Made by a program: the position numbers and the translations under genes
The notes under the pieces: generated by a model
What the model saw: only the letters and a program-made list of their open reading frames with translations
What the model was told of the DNA's origin: nothing
Database searches by the model: none
NCBI RefSeq assembly: GCF_963921235.1
Contig: NC_086108.1
Span: 10,602,001 to 10,666,000 of the forward strand
Length of the DNA: 64,000 bases
From: Mobula hypostoma
Taxonomy: Eukaryota
Direction: 5' to 3'
In this document: positions 1 through 64,000 of the stretch, in pieces
How the letters are laid out: each line of letters opens with the position of its first letter
Position numbering within the stretch: position 1 is the stretch's first letter

Positions 1-1135
1 TCACTGATCTGATCACATCTACATCACTGATCTGATCCATATCTACATCACTGATCTGACACACATCTACATCACTGATCTGATCCACATCTACATCACT
101 GATCTGACCCACATCTACATCACTGATCTGATCCACATCTACATCACTGATCTGATCCACATCTACATCACTGATCTGACACACATCTACATCACTGATC
201 TGATCCACGTCTACATCACTGATCTGACCCACATCTACATCACTGATCTGACACACATCTACATCACTGATCTGATCCACGTCTACATCACTGATCTGAC
301 CCACGTCTACATCACTGATCTGACCCACGTCTACATCACTGATCTGATCCACGTCTACATCACTTATCTGATCCACATCTACATCACTGATCTTATCCAC
401 GTCTATATCACTGATCTGATCCACAGTCTACATCACTGATCTGATCCACATCTACATCCCTGATCTGACCCACATCTACATCACTGATCTGATCCACGTC
501 TACATCACTGATCTGATCCACAGTCTACATCACTGATCTGATCCACATCTACATCCCTGATCTGACACACATCTACATCACTGATCTGACACACATCTAC
601 ATCACTGATCTGATCCACATCTACATCACTGATCTGATCCACATTACATCACTGATCTGACCCACGTCTACATCACTGATCTTATCCACGTCTATATCAC
701 TGATCTGATCCACAGTCTACATCACTGATCTGACACACATCTACATCACTGATCTGACCCACATCTACATCACTGATCTGATCCACATCTACATCACTGA
801 TCTGATCCACAGTCTACATCACTGATCTGATCCACATCTACATCCCTGATCTGACACACATCTACATCACTGATCTGACACACATCTACATCACTGATCT
901 GATCCACATCTACATCACTGATCTGATCCACATTACATCACTGATCTGACCCACGTCTACATCACTGATCTTATCCACGTCTATATCACTGATCTGACAC
1001 ACATCTACATCACTGATCTGACACACATCTACATCACTGATCTGACCCACGTCTACATCACTGATCTGATCCATATCTATATCACTGATCTGATCCACAG
1101 TCTCGGTCACTGATCTGACCCACAGCCTACATCAC
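1..1135. repeat. 24-bp tandem satellite/minisatellite (consensus ACATCTACATCACTGATCTGATCC), runs off the window start
   Basis: About 47 near-identical units. Occasional 25-nt (CCACAGTCTAC) and 23-nt (ACATTACATC) variants. Confidence 0.97.
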
Positions 1136-1599
1136 TGCACTGGTCAACAGTCAGTGCTCCCGGGTAGTAGAGCAGACCAAATCCTCCAGACCTTAGCACA
1201 AGTCTATCGATCTCTCATTGCCTTGAACATCACACCTCCCTCTTCCCCTAGTTTAGTGGCATCTGTCTATCCCGATGCACTTTGTAGATCCACCCTCTCT
1301 GTGTCCTGCAGAGGTGTGAGGTTAAAATACCCCAAGCCAATTGCAGAAACATTGGCAACAGAATTAACAAGTAATTGGAGTAATTTTAAAACAGACCTAC
1401 TATCCTCTGCCAAGGATTTCATTGTGGCTCTGCTCTCTAAATTGGTTGTGCCAGGTTATTGCCAGATAATGTCAAGCACTCTGACAAATTCAGGGAAGAA
1501 GTTTGGAAATCTGACCATTTAAGGTGGGAACATGCAGTCTACATCAGGACGTGAGAAAAAGAAGCCAAACAGGTTCTCTGAAGAGATTGCAAAACCTTG

Positions 1600-1900: not shown

Positions 1901-1924
1901 AAATTTCAACCCCCAACTTTATAA

Positions 1925-4380
1925 AAACATAGAAACATAGAAAATAGGTGCAGGAGTAGGCCATTCGGCCCTTCGAGCCTGCACCGCCATTTATTATGAT
2001 CATGACTGATCATCCAACTCAGAACCCTGCACCAGCCTTCCCTCCATACCCCCTGATCCCCGTAGCCACAAGGGACATATCTAACTCCCTCTTAAATATA
2101 GCCAATGAACTGGCCTCAACTGTTTCCTGTGGCAGAGAATTCCACAGATTCACCACTCTCTGTGTGAAGAAGTTTTTCCTAATCTCGGTCCTAAAGGCCT
2201 TCCCCTTTATCCTCAAACTGTGACCCCTCGTTCTGGACTTCCCCAACATTGGGAACAATCTTCCTGCATCTAGCCTGTCCAATCCCTTTAGGATTTTATC
2301 CGTTTCAATCAGATCCCCCCTCAATCTTCTAAATTCCAACTAGTACAAGCCCAGTTCATCCAGTCTTTCTTCATATGAAAGTCCTGCCATCCCAGGAATC
2401 AATCTGGTGAACCTTCTTTGTACTCCCTCTATGGCAAGGATGTCTTTCCTCAGATTAGGGGACCAAAACTGCACACAATACTCCAGGTACTCCAGGTCTC
2501 ACCTAGGCCTTGTACAACTGCAGTAGTACCTCCCTGCTCCTGTACTCGAATCCTCTCGCTATAAATGCCAGCATACCATTCGCCTTTTTCACCGCCTGCT
2601 GTACCTGCATGCCCACTTTCAATGACTGGTGTATAATGACACCCAGGTCTCGTTGCACCTCCCCTTTTCCTAATCGGCCACCATTCAGATAATAATCTGT
2701 TTTCCTATTTTTGCCACCAAAGTGGATAACTTCACATTTATACACATTAAATTGCATCTGCCATGAATTTGCCCACTCACCCAACCTATCCAAGTCACCT
2801 TGCATCCTCTTAGCATCCTCCTCACAGCTAACACTGCCGCCCAGCTTCGTGTCATCCGCAAACTTGGAGATGTTGCATTTAATTCCCACATCCTAGTCAT
2901 TAATATATATTGTAAACAACTGGGGTCCCAGCACTGAGCCTTGCGGTACCCCACTAGTGACTGCCGCACATTCTGAAAAGGTCCCGTTTATTCCCACTCT
3001 TTGCTTCCTGTCTGCTAACCAATTCTCTATCCACATCAGTACCTTACCCCCAATACCGTGTGCTTTAAGTTTGCACACTAATCTCCTGTGTGGGACCTTG
3101 TCAAAAGCCTTTTGAAAATCCAAATATACCACATCCACTGCTTCTCCCCTATCCACTCTATTAGTTACATCCTCAAAAAATTCTATGAGATTCGTCAGAC
3201 ATGATTTTCCCTGGTTTCTATCTCCCTCCTTTTTTAAAAAGTGGGGTTACATTAGCCACCCTCCAATCCTCAGGAACTAGTCCAGAATCTAACGAGTTTT
3301 GAAAAATTATCACTAATGCATCCATTATTTCTTGGGCTACTTCCTTAAGCACTCTGGGATGCAGACCATCTGGCCCTGGGGATTTATCTGCCTTTAATCC
3401 CTTCAATTTACCCAACACCACTTCCCTACTAACATGTATTTCGCTCAGTTCCTCCATCTCACTGGACCCTCTGTCCCCTACTATTTCTGGAAGATTATTT
3501 ATGTCCTCCTTAGTGAAGACAGAACCAAAGTAATTATTCAATTGGTCTGCCATGTCCTTGCTCCCCATAATCAATTCACCTGTTTCTGTCTGTGGGGGAC
3601 CTACATTTGTCTTTACCAGTCTTTTTCTTCTTACATATCTATAAAAGCTTTTACAGTCAGTTTTTACGTTCCCTGCCAGTTTTCTCTCATAATCTTTTTT
3701 CCCCCTTCCTAATTAAGCCCTTTGTCCTCCTCTGCTAAACTCTGAATTTCTCCCAGTCCTCAGGTGAGCCACTTTCTCTGGCTAATTTGTATGCTTCTTC
3801 TTTGGAATTGATACTATCCCTAATTTCTCTTGTCAGCCACGGGTGCACTACCTTCCTTGATTTATTCTTTTGCCAAACTGGGATGAACAATTGTTGTAGT
3901 TCATCCATGCAATCCTTAAATGCTTGCCATTGCATGTCCACCGTCAATCCTTTAAGTGTCATTTGCCAGTCTATCTTAACTAATTCACGTCTCATACCTT
4001 CAAAGTTACCCCTCTTTAAGTTCAGAACCTTTGTTTCTGAATTAACTATGTCACTCTCCATCTTAATGAAGAATTCCACCATATTATGGTCTCTCTTACC
4101 CAAGGGGCCTCTCACGACAAGATTGCTAATTAACCCTTCCTCATTGCTCAAAACCCAGTCTTGAATAGCCTACTCTCTAGTTGGTTCCTTGACATGTTGG
4201 TTCAAAAAACCATCCCGCATACATTCCAAGAAATCCTCTTCCTCAGCACCTTTACCAATTTGGTTCACCCAATCTACATGTAGATTGAAGTCACCCATTA
4301 TAACTGCTGTTCCTTTATTGCACACATTTCTAATTTCCTGTTTAATACCATCTCCGACCTCACTACTACTGTTAGGTGGC
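1925..4380 (-). mobile_element. Young CR1 LINE, 5'-truncated ORF2 (end of endonuclease, RT) with stops and an internal deletion
   Basis: ORF pieces KADKSPGPDGLHPRVLKE, VYLDFQKAFDKVPH, GVPQGSVLGP, KFADD, FFTQRVVNLWNSLP. 8-nt (TTTCTATG)n tail at 1925-1945. Confidence 0.95.
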
Positions 4381-10502: not shown

Positions 10503-11589
10503 CAGACAGGAAGCAAAGAGTGGGAATAAACGGGACCTTTTCAGAATGGCGGTGACTAGTGGGGTACCGCAAGGCTCAGTGCTGGGACCCCAGTTGTTTA
10601 CAATATATATTAATGACTTGGATGAGGGAATTAAATGCAGCATCTCCAAGTTTGCGGATGACACGAAGCTGGGTGGCAGTGTTAGCAGTGAGGAGGATGC
10701 TAAGAGGATGCAGAGTGACTTGGATAGGTTGGGTGAGTGGGCAAACTCATGGCAGATGCAATTTAATGTGGATAAATGTGAAGTTATCCACTTTGGTGGC
10801 AAAAATAGGAAAACAGATTATTATCTGAATGGTGGCCGATTAGGAAAAGGGGAGGTGCAACGAGACCTGGGTGTCATTATACACCAGTCATTGAAAGTGG
10901 GCATGCAGGTACAGCAGGCGGTGAAAAAGGCGAATGGTATGCTGGCATTTATAGCGAGAGGATTCGAGTACAGGAGCAGGGAGGTACTACTGCAGTTGTA
11001 CAAGGCCTTGGTGAGACCACACCTGGAGTATTGTGTGCAGTTTTGGTCCCCTAATCTGAGGAAAGACATCTTTGCCATAGAGGGAGTACAAAGAAGGTTC
11101 ACCAGATTGATTCCTGGGATGGCAGGACTTTCATATGAAGAAAGACTGGATGAACTGGGCTTGTACTCATTGGAATTTAGAAGATTGAGGGGGGATCTGA
11201 TTGAAACGTATAAGATCCTAAAGGGATTGGACAGGCTAGATGCAGGAAGATTGTTCCCGATGTTGGGGAAGTCCAGAACGAGGGGTCACAGTTTGAGGAT
11301 AGAGGGGAAGCCATTTAGGACCGAGATTAGGAAAAACTTCTTCACACAGAGAGTGGTGACTCTGTGGAATTCTCTGCCACAGGAAACTGTTGAGGCCAGT
11401 TCATTGGCTATGTTTAAGAGGGAGTTAGATATGGCCCTTGTGGCTACAGGGATCAGGGGGTATGGAGGGAAGGCTGGGGCGGGGTTCTGAGTTGGATGAT
11501 CAGCCATGATCATAATAAATGGCGGTGCAGGCTCGAAGGGCCGAATGGCCTACTCCTGCACCTATTTTCTATGTTTCTATGTTTCTATG
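10503..11589 (+). mobile_element. Young CR1 LINE 3' part with an uninterrupted RT C-terminal frame
   Basis: Open from VTSGVPQGSVLGP through KFADD to the stop at 11490. (TTTCTATG)3 tail. Near-identical to 1925-3015. Confidence 0.96.
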
Positions 11590-16404: not shown

Positions 16405-17070
16405 GCTGGTTGAGCATCTCCACATCATCCGTCTGAAGCAAGAGTTACCGGGGACTAAACATGTTAATTTCTATTCCCATTACCATTCCGACCTGTCGAT
16501 CCATGGCCTCCTTTTGTGCAAGGACAAGTCCACCCTCCACACCTGATATCCCGTCCGGGTACCCTCCAACCTGATGACATGAATATTGATTTCTCCTTTC
16601 AGAGAACATATCCCCTATCACCTTTCTCTATTCCCCACTCTGTCCTTTCACTTCTTCTCACCTGCCTATCACTTCCCCCGGGACCCCTCCTCCTTCCCTT
16701 TCTCCTGTGGTCCACTCTCCTCTCCTATCAGATTCCTTCTTCTCCCGCCCGTTACGTTTCCCACTCACCTGCCTTCACCTATCACCTTCTAGATATCCTC
16801 CTTCCCCTCACACCCCACATTTTTTATTCAGGCATCTTCCTCCTTCTTTCGCAGTCCTGTAGAAGGGTCTCGGCCTGAAACGTTGACTGTTTACTCTTTT
16901 CCATAGATGCTGTGGGGGGTTATATGGGAGGCAGGGTCTGAGGGTCGGCACAACATTGTGGGCTGATGGGCCTGTACTGTGCTGTACTATTCTATGTTCT
17001 ATGTTCTGTCTGACCTGTTGAGTTTTTCCAGGATTTTGTGTGTGTTTTTGACGATTTCCATCTCTTTGTA
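16405..17070 (+). mobile_element. Penelope-like element 3' region (family A) with a small CR1 tail inserted
   Basis: GIY-YIG C-terminal relic (GTLQPDDMNIDF). Pyrimidine-rich UTR. Degenerate hammerhead CAGTCCTGTAGAAGGGTCTCGGCCTGAAACGTTGACTG at 16852-16889. Confidence 0.75.
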
Positions 17071-38639: not shown

Positions 38640-38925
38640 TCTGTCTTCTTGCGCTGGTTTGGTTGAGTTGTTCTCCGATCTTGGCAATCTTCTTGCAAAT
38701 GTTTTGTCACCATCTGAGGAGACCACCAGTGCGCTGTTGATTGTGGTGTGCCCTCCGAATGCTTGAAAACCACACTTCCAGGAATTCTCTTGCGTATGAC
38801 ATGTATTCGCTTGCGCCATGACTTTCACCGATACTGCAGCCGAATTTGTGCCCCTCTCGATCTTCATGGGTAGAGAGGTGGGAGAGTTGCTCACTCCACT
38901 TTACAGCCAGTTGATGTCTCATCAG
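38640..38925 (-). mobile_element. Penelope-like family B relic (GIY-YIG C-terminus plus degenerate hammerhead)
   Basis: YAREFLEVWFSS. Degenerate hammerhead at 38694-38733. Confidence 0.6.
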
Positions 38926-38927
38926 GA

Positions 38928-39055
38928 GAGCAAACAGTCAATGTTTCAGGCCAAGACCCTTCATTGATCCTGATGAAGGGAAAACATTGACTGTTTGCTC
39001 TTTTCCATAGATGCTGCCTGGCCAGATGAGTTCCCCCAGCACTTTGCTTATGTTG
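38928..39055. mobile_element. Short inverted pair of Penelope family A ends
   Basis: GAGCAAACAGTCAATGTTT ... AAACATTGACTGTTTGCTC arms around CTTCAT/CTGATGAAG. Confidence 0.75.
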
Positions 39056-39061
39056 CAAGAA

Positions 39062-39564
39062 GTTCAGCTGTTTTTCAGACCAAACATCAGAATGGGGAAG
39101 AAATGTGATCTAAGTGACTTTGACCGTGGAATGGTTGTTGGTGCCAGGCAGGGTGGTTTGAGCATCTCAGAAACTGCTGATCTCCTGTGATTTTCACGCA
39201 CAATGGTCTCTAGAGCAGGGGTTCCCAACCAGAAGTCCATGGACCCCTCAGTTAATGGTAGGGGTCCATGGCATAAAAAAGGTTGGGAACCCCTGCTCTG
39301 GAGTTTACAGACAATGCGCAAGAACAAAAGACATCCAGTGAGTGGTAGTTCTGTGGGTGAAAATGCTTTGTTAACGAGAGAGGTCAGAGAAGAATGGCCA
39401 GAGTGGTTCAAACTGACAGGAAGATGACAATAACTCAGATACCCACACATTACAATAGTGGTGTGCAGAAGAGCTTCTCTGAATGTACATCATCTTAAAC
39501 TTAACAGCAGTAGAAGACCACGCTGGGTTCTATTCCCGTACTAATAAACAGGCCACTGAGGGTA
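39062..39564 (+). mobile_element. Deleted Tc1-like transposon (transposase N-terminus plus right TIR); an inverted partial copy lies at ~39715-39915
   Basis: MGKKCDLSDFDRGMVVGARQGGLSISETADLL (paired-like HTH). End CTAATAAACAGGCCACTGAGGGTA. Confidence 0.85.
39216..39295. mobile_element. 80-bp palindromic hAT-Charlie-type MITE
   Basis: TIRs CAGGGGTTCCCAACC and GGTTGGGAACCCCTG. 8-bp TSD CTCTAGAG/CTCTGGAG. Diverged copies near 30358-30436, 31958-32036 and 36128-36208. Confidence 0.92.
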
Positions 39565-41360: not shown

Positions 41361-41574
41361 TGAGTTATTGATTCTGAAACAATAATTTGAGAATGCTGAT
41401 CTGAAGTTTTCTAGGGTTTTTGGCTGTAATTCCTGTTTGAGGTCAACAGGGGGCATGTTATGTCCTATTCCCCATGACAACAAAGGGTCCAATGAGGAGA
41501 AAGATCAACAAAACCCATAGATGCTAGAAATAATCAGAAAGCTGAAGATGGTGGTGAATGTTGGTAGCTTGGGT

Positions 41575-41915
41575 TGAGATGTTTGATGTTGTGATGTTTA
41601 GTGAACTTGTTAATTAGGTTGCAGATGTTTCATCACCAGTCGAGGTGACATCCTCAGTGCACAGTGGTTGGTGTTTCTCTCTGGGAGTGCTTGCGTTTAT
41701 ATAGGCCCCCTATTCGCTTGCCTCTGTCCTGATCGGCTACCCCTTCAGTTGACCTTTGAATCCTATTACCTCACATTTCTTCTGCTCTTCAGCATTCGTA
41801 GATGGCATCTATTTCAATATGCTTACTTACGGAGTGATCAGAAGTGAACCACACTTCTAAAAACTCCCGTGGCTGCTTTGTATTTGCCTTTGCCAGAACC
41901 TCTGTGATAATAAAA
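41575..41915 (-). mobile_element. Penelope-like family B 3' end: GIY-YIG C-terminus plus pseudo-LTR
   Basis: LAKANTKQPREFLEVWFTSDHSVSKHIEIDAIY, followed by TATATAAA and a hammerhead motif. Confidence 0.75.
41620..41661 (-). ncRNA. Minimal type I hammerhead ribozyme motif, family B
   Basis: TGCA CTGAGGA T GTCACC TCGACT GGTGAT GAAAC ATC TGCA: helix I, CUGANGA core, 6-bp helix II, GAAA, NUC site. Confidence 0.75.
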
Positions 41916-44465
41916 TATAACCAATAGATTGCTGCTTCAGAACTCAATGTGAGTCCCCGCACCTTGCCCATCTCACCCTTCCACTCCTCAAAGATCTGTC
42001 GGCGAAATCAAAGTCAACTTTTATGAGAAAGAATAACGTTCATTCGGGAAAAAAAAACTGGAAGAAAGCATTTTGTCAGAAGAGCGTTCCTCTTAATGGA
42101 AAGCATAATGCACTTTGTAGAACAGGCAGTACCCCTAGAGGGTGAAGTTAGCCAACAGGAATCATCTGCTTAAATAGAAAATCACTTTCACATGTAGAAG
42201 ACACAATGTGCAGTCCTCAAAGCAAAAATTAACTCAACTGAAGTATGTAGGCCAGAATGGGTAAAGTTCTTTGGTTCTTCAACACTATCCTTTCATCTCC
42301 GCAGGCTCCACAAGCACAGAGTGGTTAAGAAGGTGTATGCTTTGTTGACCTTCATTAGCAGGATTGAGTTCACGAGCCACAAGGCAATGATGCAGCTCTA
42401 TAAAACCCTGGTTAGACCACACTTGGAGTATTATGTTCATATCTGGTCCCCTCATTATAGGAAGGTTGTGGAAACTTTAGTGGGGGTGCAGAGGAGGTTT
42501 ATCATGATGCTCAAACACAAGAAAATCTGCAGATGCTGGAAATCCGAAGCAACATGCACAAGATGTAGAGGAACTCAGCAGCCCAGACATCATCTATGGA
42601 TAAGCGTGAACAGTCGACGCTTTGGGCGGAGACCCTTCATCAGGACAGGAAGGGAAAGGGGAAAGAACCAGCAGACATAATTTTAAGGTGATTGGATGAG
42701 ATTAATGGGTTGGGGGGATGTCAGAGGAAGGTTTTTTTAAACAGCGAGTGGTGGACGCGTGGAATGCACTGCCAGGGGTGGAGGAAGAGACAGATACACT
42801 AGGACATTTAAGAAACTCTTAGATAGGCACATGAATGATAGGAAAATGGAGGGTTATGTGAAAGGAAAGAGTTAGATTAGTCTTAGAGTAGGTTAAATTG
42901 TGGGCCAAAGGGCCTGTACTGTTATACGTTCTGCCTTTACATGATGTAGAACACAGACCATAATACCAACCCTACTGAGACTGATATACTGTCTAGACCT
43001 AGGAGGACACCACCCTTACAGCAATTTTATTTAACCCAATTTCAAACCCATGACCTCTGTCACCAAGGACAAGGGCAGAAGGGTGCGAGGGAACAACACC
43101 ATCTCCAAGACCAGTAGAAATATTTCCATCTCCCCGAGTCTAAATCCTGGCACCCTCTCCAGAAAGGTGCTGGAAAAGGGCCAGTAACATCATGAAGGAT
43201 CCCAGCCACGCTGCTGATGGACTGTTTGTCCCACTCCCATCAGGGAGGAGGCTATGTAACGTCCATACCAGGACCACCAGGCTCAAAAACAGTTACTTCC
43301 CCCAAGCAGCAAGGCTGATCAACACCTCCACCCACTAACCCACCCCTCCACACCCCCAACCACCACTACTTTATCATTTCCTGTCAGTCACCTTATGTAT
43401 AGATACTCCTGTGCCCAGTGTCACTTTACGAACATATCATCAATCCATGTTTACAAGCTCAAAGTACATTTATTATCAAAGAATGTATAAATTATACAAC
43501 CTAGAAATTTGTCTGCCTCCAGGCAGCCTCAAAGCAAGAAACCCGAAAGAACCCCATTAGAAAAAATAAAGACCAACCCCCCAATGCACAAGCAAAAGGA
43601 ATAAAAAATCATGAAAACAATAGAAGCCATCAACAACATTCCTAACAAATTTGAGTCCTTGGATCCAAATCCATGGAGCAGCCTGGAGCAGGCCCAAAGC
43701 CTCGGTCTCAATTCATCAGATTAGCCAGGCAAATCACTGTGAAGCTCGCAGACACCAAGCACAGCAGCCGGGGCAGCCTCACAACCTCAACGTCATGGAG
43801 AGAGGAGCGAATCACAGGAGAGCGAGTGAAATCAGCCCGACTCTCGACACCCTGCCTTTCAGTCTATCGGGGCTGGCGTTTAAATTGTCCAAACAGTGGA
43901 TTTTACATCGCAATAGGACCTGGCCTACACCGCAGTGAAGTGCTCCAGGCCTAGACCACGCTGCCAAGCGGTTCGCTCTCGGCCTAGAGCCTGTCACCCA
44001 GCTGGAACTGTTTTCACTTTTCCAAATGGGCTTAGAAGGATTCAACCTCAACCTCGCACCCAGGTTCATTGGATGAGCATCGGCTCTTCTCTGCCTTGAC
44101 TCTTCCTTTCTGAATCGTTCAACTTCACCTGCATCCATTTTGTGACTCACCAGCGCAACTCATCTCTCAAATTCACTACGCCTCAGCTATCTTGCCTAGT
44201 TATTGTGTTTCTTTTTCACTATTATCGTGCCCGTTATCTTATCGTGTTGTTTCTTTGCATCCAGAGCCACAATTATTTCATTTGCCTTTATACTTCTGTA
44301 CTGGAAATGACACTAAACAATTCTGAGTCTTGAATCTCTCCATAAAATAAGAGTGCAGTGGCTTGAGAAGAGAGCTCACAATCAGCTTCTCAAGGGCAGT
44401 TGGTAATACACAATTATAACGCCCACACCCCACACAAACAAAAAACATTGTGTGTGTGCCGCATC

Positions 44466-44839: not shown

Positions 44840-45690
44840 TCCATCAGCCTCCACATCCAACAGATTATCCTCTACAACATCCGCTGTCCCCAAAGGGATT
44901 CTACCACTAAACAGATCTTTAACTCCCTCCCCCTTGCTTGCTTTTTGCAAGGATCCCTCCCTTGTCTGTTCATCCCTCCCCACTAATCTCCCTCCAGTCG
45001 CTTATCTCTGTAAGCAGCCTATGTGCTACACCTCCATTCAGGGCTCCAAACAGTTCTCCCAGGTGAGTCAACACTTCACCTGCAAATCTGCTGGGACCAC
45101 CTATTGTGTCCGGTGCTCCTGATGCGGCCTCCTCTACATTGGTGAGACCCAACGAGCACCTCCATATGGAGCATCCACCATAAGTGGGACTACCAGTGGC
45201 CAAACATTTTAATTCCCGTTCTGACGTGCCAGCCCATGGCCTCCTCTTGTGCCGAGATGAGACTACCCTCAGGGTGGAGGAGCAACACCTTCTATTCCAT
45301 CTGGGTAGCCTCCAGCCTGAAGGAGTCAATATTAATTTCTCCTTCCGGTGAAAATGTTTACCCCCTCCACTATTCCCCTCTCTGACCTTTTACTTCTCGC
45401 CTGCCTATTACCTCCCCTGGGTCACCTCCTCCTTCCCTTTCTCAACTTGCACACCCTCCTCGCCTATCAGGCTCTTTCTTCTGCAGCCTTGGTCTTTTCC
45501 CACCCACTTGGCTTCACCCATCACCTTCCAGATGTCCTCGTTCCCCTACCCCCCACCTTTTTATTCCAGCATCTCCCACTTCCTTCTCAATCCTGAAGAA
45601 GGGTCTTGGCCCCAAAATATCAACTTTTTACTCTGTTCCCTAGATGCTGCCTGACCTGCTGAGTTCCACCAGTATTTGTGTGTCTGACAA
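44840..45690 (+). mobile_element. Penelope-like element family A, 3' ~850 bp including a GIY-YIG endonuclease relic
   Basis: FTCKSAGTTYCVRCS*CGLLYIGET at ~45075-45150 and EEQHLLFHLGSLQPEGVNINF. Degenerate hammerhead near 45589-45625. Family A terminal motif. Confidence 0.85.
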
Positions 45691-49640: not shown

Positions 49641-50324
49641 AGAACGGTGGGGGCAGAGGCCCTATAAAGAAGGTAGGGGGAGGGTGGGAAGGAGAAGGCT
49701 GGTAGGTCCCAGGTGAAAAACCAGTAAGGGGAAAGATAAAGGGGTGGGGGAGGGGGTAGAGTGAAACAGGGATAGGGGAAGGGATGGGGAGGTAATTACC
49801 GGAAGTTCTACGTTCATACCAAGGGGCTGGAGACTACCTAGATGGTATATGAAGTGTTGCTCCTCCAACCTGAGTCCACAACAGACAAGATCTCCCGGTA
49901 GCCACCCACTTCAACTCTGCTTCCCACTCCCATTCAGGTATGTCCATACGTGGCCTCCTCTACTGCCATGATGAGGCTAAACTCAAGTTGGAGGAGCAAC
50001 ACTTCATATACTGTCTAGGTAGTCTCCAGCCCCTTGGTATGAACATAGAACTTCTGGTAATTCCCTCCCCCTCCCTTCCTCTATCCCTGTTTTACTCTGC
50101 CCCCTCCCCCAGCTGCCTATCACCTCCCTCATGGTTCCACCTCCTTCTACTACCCATTGTGTTTTCCCCTATTCCTTCTTCACCTTTCCTGCCTGTCACC
50201 TCCCTGCCTCCCTTCCCCACCCCTTTATCTTTCCCCTTACTGGTTTTTCACCTGGAACCTACCAGCCTTCTCCTTCCCACCCCCCCCCCCACCTTCTTTA
50301 TAGGGCCTCTGCCCCTTCCCTCTA

Positions 50325-50362
50325 CAGTCCTGACGAAGGGTCTCGGCCCGAAACATTGACTG
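50325..50362 (+). ncRNA. Hammerhead motif family A
   Basis: CAGTC CTGACGA A GGG TCTCGG CCC GAAAC ATT GACTG. Confidence 0.65.
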
Positions 50363-50954
50363 ATGCTGCCTGACCTGCTGAGTTCCTCCAGCGTGTTGTG
50401 AGTGTTGCTTTGACCCCAGCATCTGCAGAGTATTTTGAGTCAAAGGGACTGTTCTCCTGTTCTATGATGGCATGAGTCCATGGCCCCAGTCCTGTTTACA
50501 CTGGTGGTCCAGAGGACAAGTTAATGGTCTTAGGAGAGCAGTTTGAAGGACATGAAGCAGCATCTCTACAATGCAAGGAATCTCACATGTGTGGTGAGTG
50601 AGCGGCATATCCTAATAGAAGCAGGAGCTGTGGCGGGAGGGAGTAATAACAGTCATCAAGAGGCAATCACTTGATTACGCCCTTGAAATCACTTCAGGGG
50701 CTCTGTTGCTTTTTCAATGGCAGCGTTAATGGTGGCTGGTTTTATTTAGCATTGAATCTTCCCTGTACTGCAGAATGTGTGAGCATGTGTGTTTGAATTC
50801 AGTCTGTGCGTCTCATCCTCTTCACTGGTTTGAACAATGGCAGGAATTTTCTTTTGTGTCTTTGGAAATAACTAAACTGCGGTCTTGGGGACAAAAGCCA
50901 CGTTAACCCAGTCTGTTCCATAGTGATAAATCATCTCAGGACAGCGTCCCAAAT

Positions 50955-51630: not shown

Positions 51631-52054
51631 CAAATGCATAACAAAATATTAGGAACAATGGCGTTAATTTTTGGTCAGGATATCCGTAGGAACATAAGAC
51701 ATAGGAGCAGAAGTAGGCCATTCAGCCCATTAAGTCTTCTCAGCCATTTGATTATATCTGATATATTTCTCCCTCTCAACCCCATTCTCCTGCCTTTTCA
51801 AAGGCTCAATGATTCAATCCCTACAAACAGAGTGCCGATGGAACATCTGTTCTTCAATCGCTAAACCAGCCGAGCTGCTTTGTCAGACTGTGGATGGTTA
51901 TTCAGATAATCCTCGTGTGAGGTGTTTGCCCCAAGACACTTCAGCGCTGATCTTTGATGTGTTTCTGACTGACGTGACAAAATGTTAAACGTAGCTCGTG
52001 GTTATTTGTTTTAGCCTGTTCTATTGCTGTGACAGATAACTGGAATCAGAATGA

Positions 52055-52063
52055 ACACACTCA

Positions 52064-52140
<77 letters not shown>

Positions 52141-52159
52141 TCACACACACACACACACA

Positions 52160-52236
<77 letters not shown>

Positions 52237-52303
52237 ACACACACACTCACTCACACACACACACACACACACACTCACTCACACACACACACACACACAC
52301 TCA

Positions 52304-52341
<38 letters not shown>

Positions 52342-52377
52342 CACACACACACACACACTCACACACACACACACACA

Positions 52378-52415
<38 letters not shown>

Positions 52416-52449
52416 CCCACACACACAAATGCACTGACACACACACTCC

Positions 52450-52482
<33 letters not shown>

Positions 52483-52694
52483 TCACACTCACACACACAC
52501 ACACACTCACTCACACACACACACACACACACACTCACACACACACTCACACTCACACACACACACACACACACGCACACACACACACACAAATGCACTG
52601 ACACACACACTCCCACACACACACGCGCACACACACACACACACACACACATGCACACACACACACACAGACACACACACACAGACACACACAG

Positions 52695-52726
<32 letters not shown>

Positions 52727-52959
52727 ACACACACACACACAGACACACACACAGACACACACACACACGCACACACACACACACACACACGCACACACAG
52801 ACACACACACACACACACACTCACACACACACACACACACACACACACTCTCTCACACACACACACACTCTCACACACACTCACACACACACACACACAC
52901 ACACTCACACTCACACTCACACACACACACTCTCACACACACTCACACACACACACACT

Positions 52960-52991
<32 letters not shown>

Positions 52992-53011
52992 CACACTCAC
53001 ACACACACACT

Positions 53012-53042
<31 letters not shown>

Positions 53043-53069
53043 ACACAGACACACACACACACACACACA
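52055..53069. repeat. ~1-kb compound (CA)n microsatellite
   Basis: CA run with CT/GA/GC interruptions. The block AAATGCACTGACACACACACTCCC occurs twice. Confidence 0.98.
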
Positions 53070-53481
53070 GTCTCACTACTCAAACATACTTTATTTTACG
53101 TGCACAAGGAGAACAGCATGCTCCTGTCACCAAACTGTTCTGTACCCTGAACAGAGAAATGACATTTTTATGCAGAATTGACTAGCAGTTACAGATATTC
53201 ACCAATTGATAAACTATGTATGTTTTGAATTCTTTACTTTGCTCGAGGCTGTGCTTTGCAACTAGTGGACTTCTGTATCGGCTGCATTGATGCCTGGCGT
53301 TGTGAACTTCAGTTCGGAATGCTGTTTGCTTTTTTTATTGTTTGCACAATTTTTTTCCTCTCTCTCTCTGCAAATGAGGTGTTTGGTGGTCTTCTTTTGT
53401 TTTTAGTGGATTCCATTGGATTTCTTTGTTACGTGGCTGCCTGTAAGGAGACAAATCTCAAGCTTGCATAAAGTATACATA

Positions 53482-54502: not shown

Positions 54503-55069
54503 TACTTCAAAAATCAATGTACTCTGAATTTATGAACTTGGGCATATTGGCAAGAACAATCCTGATTCACAACAGAGGTGTTAAAAAACTATAAGCTGAC
54601 CACCGATGATTCTTTGAAGCTAGTAAATTAATTGTCCCTTAGTTAGTATGTGTATGCGGCTTGGATCACTTATCTCGTCTCCAGACCCATGGTTGGCAAA
54701 GGGAAGCTATGCTCTTCAAAGACATTTTCCTGCCTGCCTCGCCTGTACTGTCTCTGCAGGATATCCTTGCCTGGACTTTGCCCTTCCACAGCACACACAG
54801 TATCACCTAGCAGTCCGTTCTTCCTTTGTTATTTTTCCTTGTTTCTTTATTTGGCTGTGGAAGTTCATCCCAGGACAGTATTTCTTGTCCATCCTGACTT
54901 AGAGAGTGTGTAGAGGAGATTTACCCAGATGTTGCCTGGATTAAATAGCATGTCTTGGGAGGAAAGAATGGAGGCGAGGACTTTTCTCTTTGGTGCACAG
55001 GAGGAAGAGATGTTACTTGATATATACATGCATATATACTATGATAACATGCATAGATCATCTTTGGTA

Positions 55070-56045
55070 ACACACACACAAAATGCTGGAGGAACTCAGC
55101 AGGTCAGCCGACAGCTATGGAAATGAATAAACAGTTGATGTTTCGGGCTGAGACCCTTCATCGGGACTGAGAAGGAAGGAGGAAAGTGACAGAATAAAGA
55201 GGTGTGGGGAGGGCAAGGAGGGCAGCTGGGAGGTGATAGGTCAAGCCAGGTGGGTGGGAAAGGTAAAGGGCTGGAGAGGAGAGTAGGCCATAGGAGAAAG
55301 AGAAGGAAAAGGGGCACAGGGGGAGGTGATAGGTAGGTGTGAAGAAATAAGAGGTCGGAGTAGGTAATAGAAGAGGGAGGGGAAGGAATTTTTTAATGGA
55401 AGGAGAAGTCGATATTTATGCCATCGGATCGAAAGATCAGGTATTGCTCCTCCACCCTGATGAAGTCCTCATCTTGGCACAAAAGGAGACCATGGACCAA
55501 CATGTCGGGATGGTAATGAGGATCAGAATTAAAATGTTTGGCCACCAGGAAATTCTACTTCTAGCAGATGGATCGGAAGTGCTCGATGAAGCAGTCCCCC
55601 CCCCCCGCCCGATTTACAACAGGTCTCACGAATATAGAGGAGGCCACATCAGGAGCACCAGACACAATAGACGACTCCAACAGATTCGCAGGTGAAGTGT
55701 TGCCTCACCTGGAAGGACTGGTTGGGGCCCTGAATGAAGATGAAGGAGGAGGTGAATGAGCAGGTGTAGCCTTTTGGCCACTTGCAGGTATAAGTGCTGG
55801 GGGGGAGGGGAGATTAGTGGGGAGGAACAAACGGGCACCCACAGAGAGAGGAGGGAAGTAAGGATGTGTTTGGTGGTAAAATTCCTTTGGAGATAGTGGA
55901 AGTTGTGGGGAAGGGACAAACGGGCACCCACAGAGAGAGGAGGGAAGTAAGGATGTGTTTGGTGGTAAAATTCCTTTGGAGATAGTGGAAGTTGTGGGGA
56001 AGGGTGTGCTGGATGCAAAGTCTCATGGGGTGTTAGATAAGGACA
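55070..56045 (-). mobile_element. Penelope family A 3' ~1 kb with an internal 89-bp tandem duplication (55827-56004)
   Basis: GIY-YIG relic (FTCESVGVVYCVWCS*CGLLY). Terminal motif. Degenerate hammerhead at 55131-55170. Confidence 0.85.
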
Positions 56046-58040: not shown

Positions 58041-58189
58041 TATTTTACATCAGCGGGAATTGAACCTTGTTCTGTAATAGCATCCTACCATGCTGCCTTA
58101 ATCTGCGAAAAAATCAACACCCTCATTACAACACACATCAAAGTTGCTGGTGAACGCAGCAGGCCAGGCAGCATCTCTAGGAAGAGGCG

Positions 58190-58227
58190 CAGTCGACGTT
58201 TCAGGCCGAGACCCTTCGTCAGGACTA
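58190..58227 (-). ncRNA. Intact minimal hammerhead motif family A (minus-strand copy)
   Basis: Reverse complement of 58301-58338. Confidence 0.78.
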
Positions 58228-58300
58228 ACTGAAGGAAGAGTGAGTTCGTCAGGACTAACTGAAGGAAGAGTGAGTAAGGGATACTCACTCTTCCTTCAGT

Positions 58301-58338
58301 TAGTCCTGACGAAGGGTCTCGGCCTGAAACGTCGACTG
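58301..58338 (+). ncRNA. Intact minimal type I hammerhead motif family A; predicted cleavage after C58333
   Basis: TAGTC CTGACGA AGG GTCTCGG CCT GAAAC GTC GACTG. All core nucleotides present. Helix III reduced to the palindrome ACGT. Confidence 0.8.
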
Positions 58339-58639
58339 CGCCTCTTCCTAGAGATGCTGCCTGGCCTGCTGCGTTCACCAGCAACTTTGATGTGTGTTGC
58401 TTGAATTTCCAGCATCTGCAGAATTCCTGTTGTTTGCGTTTAAACACCCTCATTACCTAGAACTTGAAAGAGACTCTTTGAGCCCTTGAAACTGTTCACC
58501 CTTTTAGATAGATCGTGGCTGTAATCTACCTCAACTCTCTCCAGCCACCTCAGTTCCACAGCCATTGACAAACGCATACCCCAACTCTACACAAACAGCA
58601 GTGAACGTAGCTTCCCATTAATCTCCAGGCTCTGCAAAG

Positions 58640-63399: not shown

Positions 63400-63620
63400 A
63401 TATGAGTTTGATGCTGTGGTGCTCGCCGAGCTTGGCGATTAGCTTGCAGACGTTTCATCTCCAGTCGAGGAGACATCCCCAGTGCACAGTTGTTGGTGTT
63501 TCAGTCTGGGAGTGCTCACATTTATATAGGCCCCCATTTGCTTGCCTCAGTACAGATTGGCTACCCCTCCGGTTGACCTTTGAATTCTATTGGCTCGCAT
63601 TTCTTTGGTCTTTAGGGATA
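63400..63620 (-). mobile_element. Solo pseudo-LTR of Penelope family B (CCAAT, TATA, hammerhead)
   Basis: Colinear with 41575-41790. The minus strand reads AGCCAAT twice, then CCTATATAAATG, then the hammerhead. Confidence 0.75.
63445..63486 (-). ncRNA. Minimal hammerhead motif family B (A6>G core mutation)
   Basis: TGCA CTGGGGA T GTCTCC TCGACT GGAGAT GAAAC GTC TGCA. Confidence 0.7.
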
Positions 63621-64000
63621 TGAGTGCTACGAGTGGATAAGTCGTGACTTATTTTGAGAACCTTCTTGAGCAACACACACAAGATGCTGGAGGAACTCAG
63701 CAGATCAGACAGCATCCATGGAAATGAATAAACAGTCGACGCTTCAGGTCTTGCGAAGCTCTTGCCATATGGGCGATGAAGTCAAATTCCTGGTCTGCGT
63801 TACCAATATTGAACTCCCAGCATGCTCCTGTACAATGGACCATGGGATTTTCCTCTGGATTTCCTGTTCTGCGTGTGGGAGTTTAACATCTTCACTTGAG
63901 TTTGTGGGAATGGGGAGAGTATGAAATCTTTAGAAAGCCACGTGGCATCAGGGAAGGCGTGGAGAAAATTTGTAGGAAACAGCTTGGATTAGAGAGCATG

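What the first reader, a model, noticed from the sequence alone, without database searches (positions are those of the whole stretch)
41575..41915. Second hammerhead family (B) with a compensatory stem-II change, inside a CCAAT-TATA-ribozyme pseudo-LTR
Seen: 41620-41661(-) has helix II GTCACC/GGTGAT, while 63445-63486(-) has GTCTCC/GGAGAT. This is a double A-T to T-A substitution that keeps the pairing. Helix I is TGCA/TGCA in both, and a third decayed copy is at 38694-38733. TATATAAA lies ~35 nt upstream in both copies, with CCAAT boxes further upstream in the 63.5-kb copy. A GIY-YIG C-terminal REFLEVWF motif precedes two of the copies. Inference: a second Penelope lineage uses a Pol II promoter followed directly by a self-cleaving ribozyme, and its sequence differs from family A. 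The covariation suggests selection on RNA structure in the source elements.
Basis: partly seen in the sequence, partly recalled or inferred. Interest (0 to 1): 0.72.

Follow-up and report, generated by a model that had tools for sequence, protein, structure and literature searches.

The report
Penelope ribozyme overlapping its start codon

Summary
The motifs, helices, TATA box, CCAAT boxes and endonuclease tail are all present as described. They are decayed ends of a high-copy Penelope/Poseidon-type retroelement; about 1,800-2,400 contigs match in each of 4 runs. All three copies match the N-terminus of a full-length RT + GIY-YIG protein (P0017), and two also match its C-terminus. The ATG sits inside the ribozyme core, as published for Anolis Poseidon. 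Helix II is therefore also codons 2-7.

The 'compensatory' pair is weak evidence. The left change is silent (Ser2) and occurs alone, as a U.U mismatch, in the third copy and in a published Clonorchis motif. The right change is Val6 to Glu and is under 8% of family depth in 4 of 4 runs. Linkage could not be measured. The U at 11.1 encodes Met7 and is probably native.

Two leads remain. The predicted cut at +28 would remove the cap and both start codons, a testable off-switch. The closest of 56 published motifs are liver-fluke ones (38 of 42 nt). The scan has noted this promoter-plus-hammerhead layout before, in this genome and in a lizard.

The parts
41523..41918 (-). B1 insertion, 5'-truncated Poseidon-type copy between candidate target-site duplications (41929-41919 and 41522-41512, 10 of 11 identical)
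   Evidence: TSD search; about 24 nt at the 3' end (41546-41523) match nothing tested
41777..41902 (-). B1 GIY-YIG endonuclease C-terminal tail (REFLEVWF), with an in-frame stop at 41791-41789
   Evidence: tblastn to P0017 residues 763-804, E 1.6e-7; P0007/P0008
41765..41769 (-). B1 upstream CCAAT box, decayed here, intact in the family majority
41732..41736 (-). B1 downstream CCAAT box, decayed here, intact in 98-99% of family depth
41696..41703 (-). B1 TATA box; predicted start site about 41672 (CA at +30/+31 from the TATA)
   Evidence: start site inferred
41620..41661 (-). B1 minimal type I hammerhead; core intact, 16.2 decayed; predicted cut between 41624 and 41623
41547..41651 (-). B1 first 35 codons of the element ORF (ATG 41651-41649 inside the ribozyme core), including the ~35-nt optional tail
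   Evidence: 22 of 35 residues identical to the P0017 N-terminus, E 1.5e-6
63406..63615 (-). B2 insertion, pLTR only, 82.5% identical to B1 over 212 nt; candidate TSD 63625-63614 and 63407-63396 (11 of 12 identical)
63556..63593 (-). B2 two intact CCAAT boxes (63593-63589, 63560-63556), 33 bp apart
63521..63528 (-). B2 TATA box
63445..63486 (-). B2 minimal hammerhead with the double change (63471, 63460) and a broken core (A6 to G); ATG at 63476
38755..38937 (-). B3 GIY-YIG C-terminal tail with two compensating frameshifts
38657..38733 (-). B3 decayed hammerhead of a second sublineage (U.U mismatch in helix II, GUU-type site decayed) plus ORF codons 2-23; promoter deleted
   Evidence: nhmmer E 3e-10

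Best explanation
The three segments are decayed, truncated 3' ends of a high-copy Penelope/Poseidon-type retrotransposon in which a likely polymerase II promoter (two CCAAT boxes and a TATA box) precedes a minimal hammerhead motif that overlaps codons 1-10 of the element's protein, and the paired swap in copy B2 is likely a silent lineage variant plus one chance mutation. Shown by sequence and calls: the anatomy, the match of the motif's reading frame to the N-terminus of a full-length RT + GIY-YIG protein, candidate target-site duplications, and copy ends at +69/+71 and +105 from the ATG. Inferred: in the active ancestor, transcription would start about 31 nt after the TATA (11 nt before helix I, 21 nt before the ATG), and the uncut capped RNA would be translated and reverse-transcribed from the AC-rich region behind the motif, giving ends with or without the ~35-nt tail. 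Inferred by analogy with Anolis PAc: the ribozyme would cut weakly, with help from the element's protein or a second copy, 28 nt after the A of the ATG. These three copies are likely inactive.
For: Reading frame: tblastn of P0017 (812 aa; Pfam RVT_1 E 7e-10, GIY-YIG E 0.002 below cutoff) against the window gave 5 hits, all on B1-B3: N-terminus 22 of 35, 14 of 23 and 16 of 21 identical, C-terminus on B1 and B3. PAc has its ORF starting at stem II, a cut 26 nt after the start codon, protein-assisted cleavage, and a 30-40-nt tail between two RT start sites (PMC11167929 section 3). A TATA + Inr in a pLTR holding the first 12-22 codons is published for Adineta Pen2a (PMC3846280 passages). Codons: the left change is TCA to TCT (Ser2, silent) and the right change GTG to GAG (Val6 to Glu); Val6 is kept in B1, B3 and P0017. 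Left change alone: B3 and Clonorchis(2). Right change rare: no A>T class at 8% or more anywhere in 41540-41900 in 4 of 4 runs, with high depth over 41631-41643. One private A/T swap at a given A/T site has a rate of about 3-4% between B1 and B2 (3 of 112 or 5 of 114 sites).
Against: Linkage of the two changes was not measured: one search gives unlinked columns, shows 40 of 100 rows, uses contigs that drop rare variants, and needs 80% likeness to B1; one search returned no difference rows. A minor subfamily under 8% with both changes is not excluded. The frequency of the left-arm T in the B1/B2 lineage is unknown (no row shown; under about 36% by inference from which rows were kept). If both changes were private, the chance for that pair would be only about 0.2%. 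No start-site, expression or cleavage data were obtained. D. virilis Penelope uses a TATA-less internal promoter (PMC2377424 passages), and 0 of 28 hammerhead-like motifs from metagenome contigs had a TATA at this spacing. No tree was built.
Confidence: 0.78

Rival explanations
1. One reading: B2 descends from a minor active subfamily that carried both changes, kept by selection on helix II, so the swap is true covariation.
For: Both changes are transversions at partner positions; chance about 0.2% if both are private. Covariation among PLE hammerhead families is general (PMC4209133 Discussion), and an invertebrate family shows it at pair 2 (21 A:T, 12 G:C, 2 other, of 35).
Against: Right-arm change under 8% in 4 of 4 runs. 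It changes Val6, kept in B1, B3 and P0017, to Glu. The left change stands alone in B3 and Clonorchis(2).
Confidence: 0.15
2. The second change arose in B2's DNA after insertion by hairpin-templated repair or template switching, copying one arm onto the other; it looks compensatory but involves no selection.
For: The arms are a 6-bp inverted repeat 6 nt apart, and the change perfects it. The mechanism is recalled general knowledge, from no call.
Against: No direct evidence. A plain point mutation at 3-4% per site is enough.
Confidence: 0.05
3. The CCAAT and TATA words are not the working promoter; the element is transcribed from an internal promoter or by host read-through, and the ribozyme mainly cuts tandem precursors. 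This concerns the promoter step only and does not exclude the best explanation's identity claim.
For: D. virilis Penelope has a TATA-less internal promoter. Cervera and De la Pena propose precursor processing. No start-site data here.
Against: Both boxes are kept by the family majority in 4 of 4 runs, match the recalled NF-Y consensus flanks, and are 33 bp apart as in the cyclin B2 promoter (PMC3287175 passage). A CA dinucleotide lies at +30/+31 in both copies.
Confidence: 0.15
4. The copies in this window still work for the host as promoter or ribozyme.
For: B2 keeps both CCAAT boxes and the TATA; B1 keeps the CUGANGA and GAAA core.
Against: Each copy has a core or helix III lesion, B1 has lost both CCAAT boxes and carries 2 stops in 35 codons, and B1 and B2 differ at 35 of 210 aligned sites.
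Confidence: 0.02

Closest known systems
Poseidon of Anolis carolinensis (PAc; PMC11167929, section 3 read whole, supplements 1-3 searched without hits, .gbk file not readable)
   Same: ORF starts at the beginning of stem II; cut site lies shortly after the start codon; copies end in an AC-rich region about 70-110 nt into the ORF, with an optional 30-40-nt tail; RT plus C-terminal GIY-YIG.
   Different: Cut predicted at +28 here (6-nt loop) versus 26 bp in PAc. The paper's main text does not mention a TATA box (0 occurrences). The copies here are dead; PAc was tested in vitro.
Minimal hammerheads of metazoan PLE pLTRs (PMC4209133; parts 1-2 of 4 of the text and parts 1-2 of 3 of the supplement read)
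   Same: Type I, no real helix III, palindromic 15.2-16.2, extra nucleotide between 9 and 10.1, long helix II, short helix I, many families per genome.
   Different: G.U rather than G-C at 10.1-11.1 in B1 and B2 (also seen in some listed rows). No shark or ray among the 56 rows.
Clonorchis sinensis PLE hammerheads (1) and (2) (PMC4209133 Fig. S3; (1) listed as 'Cercyon, partial')
   Same: By eye, B1 matches row (1) at 38 of 42 nt with identical helix II arms. B3 matches row (2) at 33 of 38 aligned nt plus a 2-nt gap, with identical arms including the U.U mismatch. No other of the 56 rows has these arms.
   Different: Only about 60 nt are available, constrained both as RNA and as protein; the core has G (B1) versus U at position 7. 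Whether the fluke elements have CCAAT or TATA boxes could not be seen.
Adineta vaga Pen2a_Av pLTR (PMC3846280, passages)
   Same: TATA box and initiator-like sequence in the pLTR; the pLTR holds the first 12 codons, 22 with the tail.
   Different: No tandem CCAAT boxes mentioned in the passages seen; Perere-related clade.
Drosophila virilis Penelope (PMC2377424, passages)
   Same: Promoter carried in the pLTR.
   Different: TATA-less internal promoter with DPE and an intron; family B has upstream CCAAT-CCAAT-TATA.

Membership tests
Penelope/Poseidon EN+ PLE | Single ORF with RT and C-terminal GIY-YIG endonuclease | tested here: met
   Shown through the relative P0017 (RVT_1 E 7e-10; GIY-YIG E 0.002, below cutoff), whose two ends match the copies. 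The window itself holds no RT part of this family.
Penelope/Poseidon EN+ PLE | No cysteine-rich linker between RT and endonuclease (separates it from Neptune; PMC3846280, PMC8557442) | tested here: met
   P0017 has a single Cys (637) between residues 608 and 710; tested on the relative, not on the window copies.
Penelope/Poseidon EN+ PLE | 3' end continues into a pLTR that includes the first codons, with optional 30-40-nt tail; 5' truncation | tested here: met
   B1 ends at +105, B2 at +71, B3 at about +69; difference 34-36 nt.
Penelope/Poseidon EN+ PLE | Tandem or inverted pLTR arrangement around a full ORF | not testable with these tools
   No whole genome held; all three copies are single fragments.
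Penelope/Poseidon EN+ PLE | RT phylogeny inside the Penelope/Poseidon clade | not tested
Minimal PLE hammerhead (min-HHR) | CUGANGA and GAAA...UH core | tested here: met
   Met in B1 (0 core mismatches) and by inference in the family majority. Broken in B2 and B3, which are filed as decayed copies.
Minimal PLE hammerhead (min-HHR) | Extra nucleotide between 9 and 10.1; G10.1 paired with 11.1; helix II longer than 4 bp; short helix I | tested here: met
   Extra U in B1 and B2; 6-bp helix II; G.U at 10.1-11.1 in B1 and B2 (as in listed row Clonorchis(1)), G-C in B3; helix I 3-4 bp.
Minimal PLE hammerhead (min-HHR) | Palindromic 15.2-16.2 allowing a dimeric helix III | tested here: met
   Met in B2 and in 46-56% of family depth; lost in B1 and B3 by a CpG-type change.
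Minimal PLE hammerhead (min-HHR) | Self-cleavage at the predicted site | not testable with these tools
   Needs a bench assay; contigs show no RNA ends.
CCAAT/TATA polymerase II promoter | CCAAT boxes and TATA at canonical spacing, conserved across copies | tested here: met
   Spacing 33, 32-33 and 42 nt in B1 and B2; family majority keeps both boxes; no TATA position among the 40 of 100 rows shown.
CCAAT/TATA polymerase II promoter | Capped transcripts starting about 30 nt after the TATA | not testable with these tools
   No raw-read or CAGE run was offered.

The most novel reading that the evidence does not exclude
In this Poseidon lineage the hammerhead is a translation off-switch. The TATA box starts a capped RNA 21 nt before an ATG that is built into the catalytic core, and the cut at +28 strips off the cap and both in-frame start codons (Met1 and Met7; the next Met in the relative P0017 is residue 102). 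Because cleavage needs the element's own protein in Anolis PAc, the protein would shut off its own mRNA by negative feedback, or convert it from message to template. I found no paper stating this in searches; earlier scan notes mention a cap-proximal motif.
Probability: 0.25. Interest if true: 0.6.

Novelty: new member of a known kind. Interest (0 to 1): 0.3.

Why it matters
As a finding it is ordinary: hammerheads in Penelope pseudo-LTRs, several families per genome, a TATA box in a pLTR and a start codon inside the motif are all in print. It carries a caution: where a helix is also coding sequence, one two-sided change cannot be read as RNA covariation. It would matter more if the geometry (TATA, start, ATG in the core, cut at +28) proves to be a protein-triggered off-switch, because the role of these ribozymes is stated to be unclear (PMC8557442 passage). 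It would also matter if the match of two sublineages to two liver-fluke families reflects horizontal transfer between fish and flatworm parasites.

Tried and rejected
Rfam found no hammerhead. Pfam found nothing on 4 of 4 short window peptides. Word-based protein searches with the B1 and B3 tails found nothing; HMMER on the B3 tail gave 6 hits, of which 5 were multi-stretch matches that I took as low-complexity and dropped unread, and 1 (P0005) was followed. The ESM Atlas gave leads only: B3 scored under 0.9, and B1 scored 0.90-0.92 to unnamed eukaryote clusters, some of them nematode or flatworm. Family-specific DNA patterns found 0 in metagenome contigs and 0 in prokaryote genomes. P0017 found no loci in viral or genome contigs. 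A relaxed pattern gave 115 loci, 98 unique matches, 28 with both helices; none was family B. The second read lay-over on 60 nt of B2 returned no difference rows, so it did not give the frequencies I wanted; 13 of 289 contigs in X1 were 95% or more alike, which is not interpretable. No RNA holder of the locus was listed. Two guessed-RNA runs had 30 and 23 family-like contigs; this is no evidence on expression. The pair-count tool call failed on a length slip and pairs were counted in a script instead. No TSD was found for B3. Rejected: that CpG decay explains the U at 11.1 in B1 and B2, since it is the Met7 codon shared with P0017 and Clonorchis(1). Rejected: that B3 is a decayed B1-type copy, since it shares Met5, Thr7 and the TTG Leu10 codon with Clonorchis(2) by my reading of the published row. 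The bioRxiv preprint 10.64898/2026.07.22.740005 (passages) and PMC6515669, PMC13725137 (passages) added nothing specific. The preprint's supplements are closed and the PAc GenBank file was unreadable; either could show CCAAT/TATA boxes or shark families.

Full report
Observation. B1 (41661-41620) and B2 (63486-63445) differ at the fourth pair of helix II, A:T versus T:A. TATATAAA ends 34 nt before helix I in both, and B2 has two CCAAT boxes 33 bp apart, the second 32 bp before the TATA. A strict descriptor finds 5 motifs in the window and 0 in 100 simulated windows. A profile of B1 and B2 finds only one more copy, B3 (E 3e-10). B3 carries the left change without the right one, a T:T mismatch, and has lost its promoter region. 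All three copies have lesions in the core or in the helix III palindrome.

Identity. The window is repeat-rich animal DNA (CpG observed/expected 0.29). Earlier scan notes call the host a ray (not tested by me). A HMMER search with the B3 tail led to P0005, then to RT + GIY-YIG proteins and to a full-length cluster member, P0017. Searched against the window, P0017 gives 5 hits, all on B1-B3. Its C-terminus matches the REFLEVWF tails of B1 and B3 (E about 1e-7). Its N-terminus, MSPRLVMKRLQ, matches the frame that opens at the ATG formed by hammerhead positions 9, 9.1 and 10.1 (10 of 11 residues in both B1 and B2). P0017 lacks a cysteine-rich linker, which points to Penelope/Poseidon rather than Neptune (PMC3846280 and PMC8557442, passages). 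B1 runs to +105 from the ATG, B2 to +71 and B3 to about +69. The 34-36-nt difference fits the optional 30-40-nt tail between two RT start sites in Anolis PAc (PMC11167929 section 3). B1 and B2 have candidate target-site duplications (10 of 11 and 11 of 12 identical). The family is abundant: 2409, 2206, 1829 and 2279 contigs were laid on B1 in four runs under four organism codes. One of these runs may be the window's own source.

Promoter. In one search the family majority restores both CCAAT boxes that B1 has lost (98-99% at 41734; 83-93% at 41768; 85-92% at 41769), and no TATA position is among the 40 of 100 difference rows shown. The 33-bp spacing equals that of the NF-Y boxes in the cyclin B2 promoter (PMC3287175 passage). 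A CA lies at +30/+31 from the TATA in both copies, which predicts a 21-nt leader (inference). A TATA box and initiator in a pLTR are published for Adineta Pen2a, while D. virilis Penelope is TATA-less. I found no paper on tandem CCAAT boxes in a Poseidon pLTR. The layout is not universal: 0 of 28 hammerhead-like motifs from metagenome contigs had a TATA 40-52 nt before the core (many may be truncated), and 0 of 4 family A copies scanned had a TATA or CCAAT word. Activity is untested.

The compensatory change. Helix II is also codons 2-7. The left change is the third base of Ser2 and is silent; the right change turns Val6 into Glu. Val6 is kept in B1, B3 and P0017. The left change occurs alone in B3 and in the published Clonorchis(2) motif, which has the same arms as B3 (PMC4209133 Fig. 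S3), so that mismatch is likely tolerated in a source lineage. In one search no A>T class reaches 8% in any of 4 runs, so the right change is under 8% of family depth. The left change has no shown row; its share is unknown and, judging by the rows kept (lowest best share 36%), below about a third. A single private A/T swap at a given site has a rate of about 3-4% between B1 and B2; two private swaps at one pair, about 0.2%. The simplest reading is a silent variant plus one chance hit. A small compensated subfamily is not excluded, because linkage could not be measured (one search gave no rows). General selection on helix II in PLE hammerheads is not in doubt (pair 2), but this pair is poor evidence for it. 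The U at position 11.1 is part of the Met7 codon, is shared with Clonorchis(1), and has no row among those shown, so it is probably native to the B1/B2 lineage.

Mechanism. Shown: anatomy, reading frame, copy ends. Inferred: a pLTR promoter in front of a tandem copy starts a capped RNA just before helix I; the uncut RNA is translated and serves as RT template. In PAc, cleavage needed the protein, was not needed for insertion in vitro, and no RNA-seq reads ended at the cut. The predicted cut here, at +28, would release a 49-nt piece with the cap and both Met1 and Met7; the next Met in P0017 is residue 102. That makes a feedback or message-to-template switch testable. The PAc RNA-seq result argues that cutting is rare in vivo, so I give it 0.25.

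A side lead. Among the 56 motifs in PMC4209133 Fig. S3, the two Clonorchis rows are the only ones with these helix II arms. By eye B1 matches row (1) at 38 of 42 nt, and B3 matches row (2) at 33 of 38 nt plus a 2-nt gap. The vertebrate rows are unlike family B. The segment is short and doubly constrained, the figure shows one example per family and no shark or ray, and PMC6515669 (passage) reads trematode Poseidon subfamilies as ancient. So horizontal transfer is a lead, not a result. Searches listed no paper on it, and the scan's notes held nothing.

Verdict. Observation confirmed; interpretation partly supported; new member of a known kind; interest 0.3. The scan has noted the same promoter-plus-hammerhead layout elsewhere in this genome (e1-9353515) and in a lizard (e1-10287245).

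Noticed in passing
window 41620-41661 and 38694-38733 versus PMC4209133 Fig. S3: B1 and B3 match the two Clonorchis sinensis hammerhead rows far better than any vertebrate row (38 of 42 nt; 33 of 38 nt plus a gap; by eye). Possible fish-fluke horizontal transfer of two Poseidon sublineages; my odds are about 0.3.
   Followed up: partly
window 41540-41900 (loose ends at 41614, 41659-41660, 41704): Loose-end consensus strings differ from the main family on both sides of the motif, so several more sublineages share this hammerhead.
   Followed up: no
window 58129-58435: Head-to-head fold-back of family A with two intact hammerheads (58190-58227 minus, 58301-58338 plus).
   Followed up: no
window 38927-39062 and 63669-63752: Family A pieces lie directly 5' of B3 (a fold-back) and about 50 nt 5' of B2; probably chance given how many family A pieces the window holds.
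   Followed up: no
window 49874-50420, 45020-45690, 55060-55700, 16450-16920: Family A copies end in a different endonuclease tail (LEEQ-type; Neptune label recalled and from earlier notes, not tested) and show no TATA or CCAAT word in 4 of 4 copies scanned.
   Followed up: partly
window 41638-41643 and 63463-63468: Loop II begins with the palindrome TCGA in B1 and B2 and in Clonorchis(1); it could form a kissing contact in a dimer, but it is also codons 3-5.
   Followed up: no
window 41546-41523: About 24 nt between the end of the protein match and the candidate 3' target-site duplication of B1 are unexplained.
   Followed up: no
L039 (hammerhead at 3001-3039, RT match at 1600-2172) and L034: Metagenome contigs holding a Penelope-like RT or endonuclease near a minimal hammerhead; a 35-member invertebrate family among L002-L111 covaries at helix II pair 2.
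   Followed up: partly
window 1-1150; 51980-53180; 1921-3014 with 10503-11588: A tandem array of a short unit, a long CA microsatellite, and young LINE RT copies 96% identical to each other.
   Followed up: no
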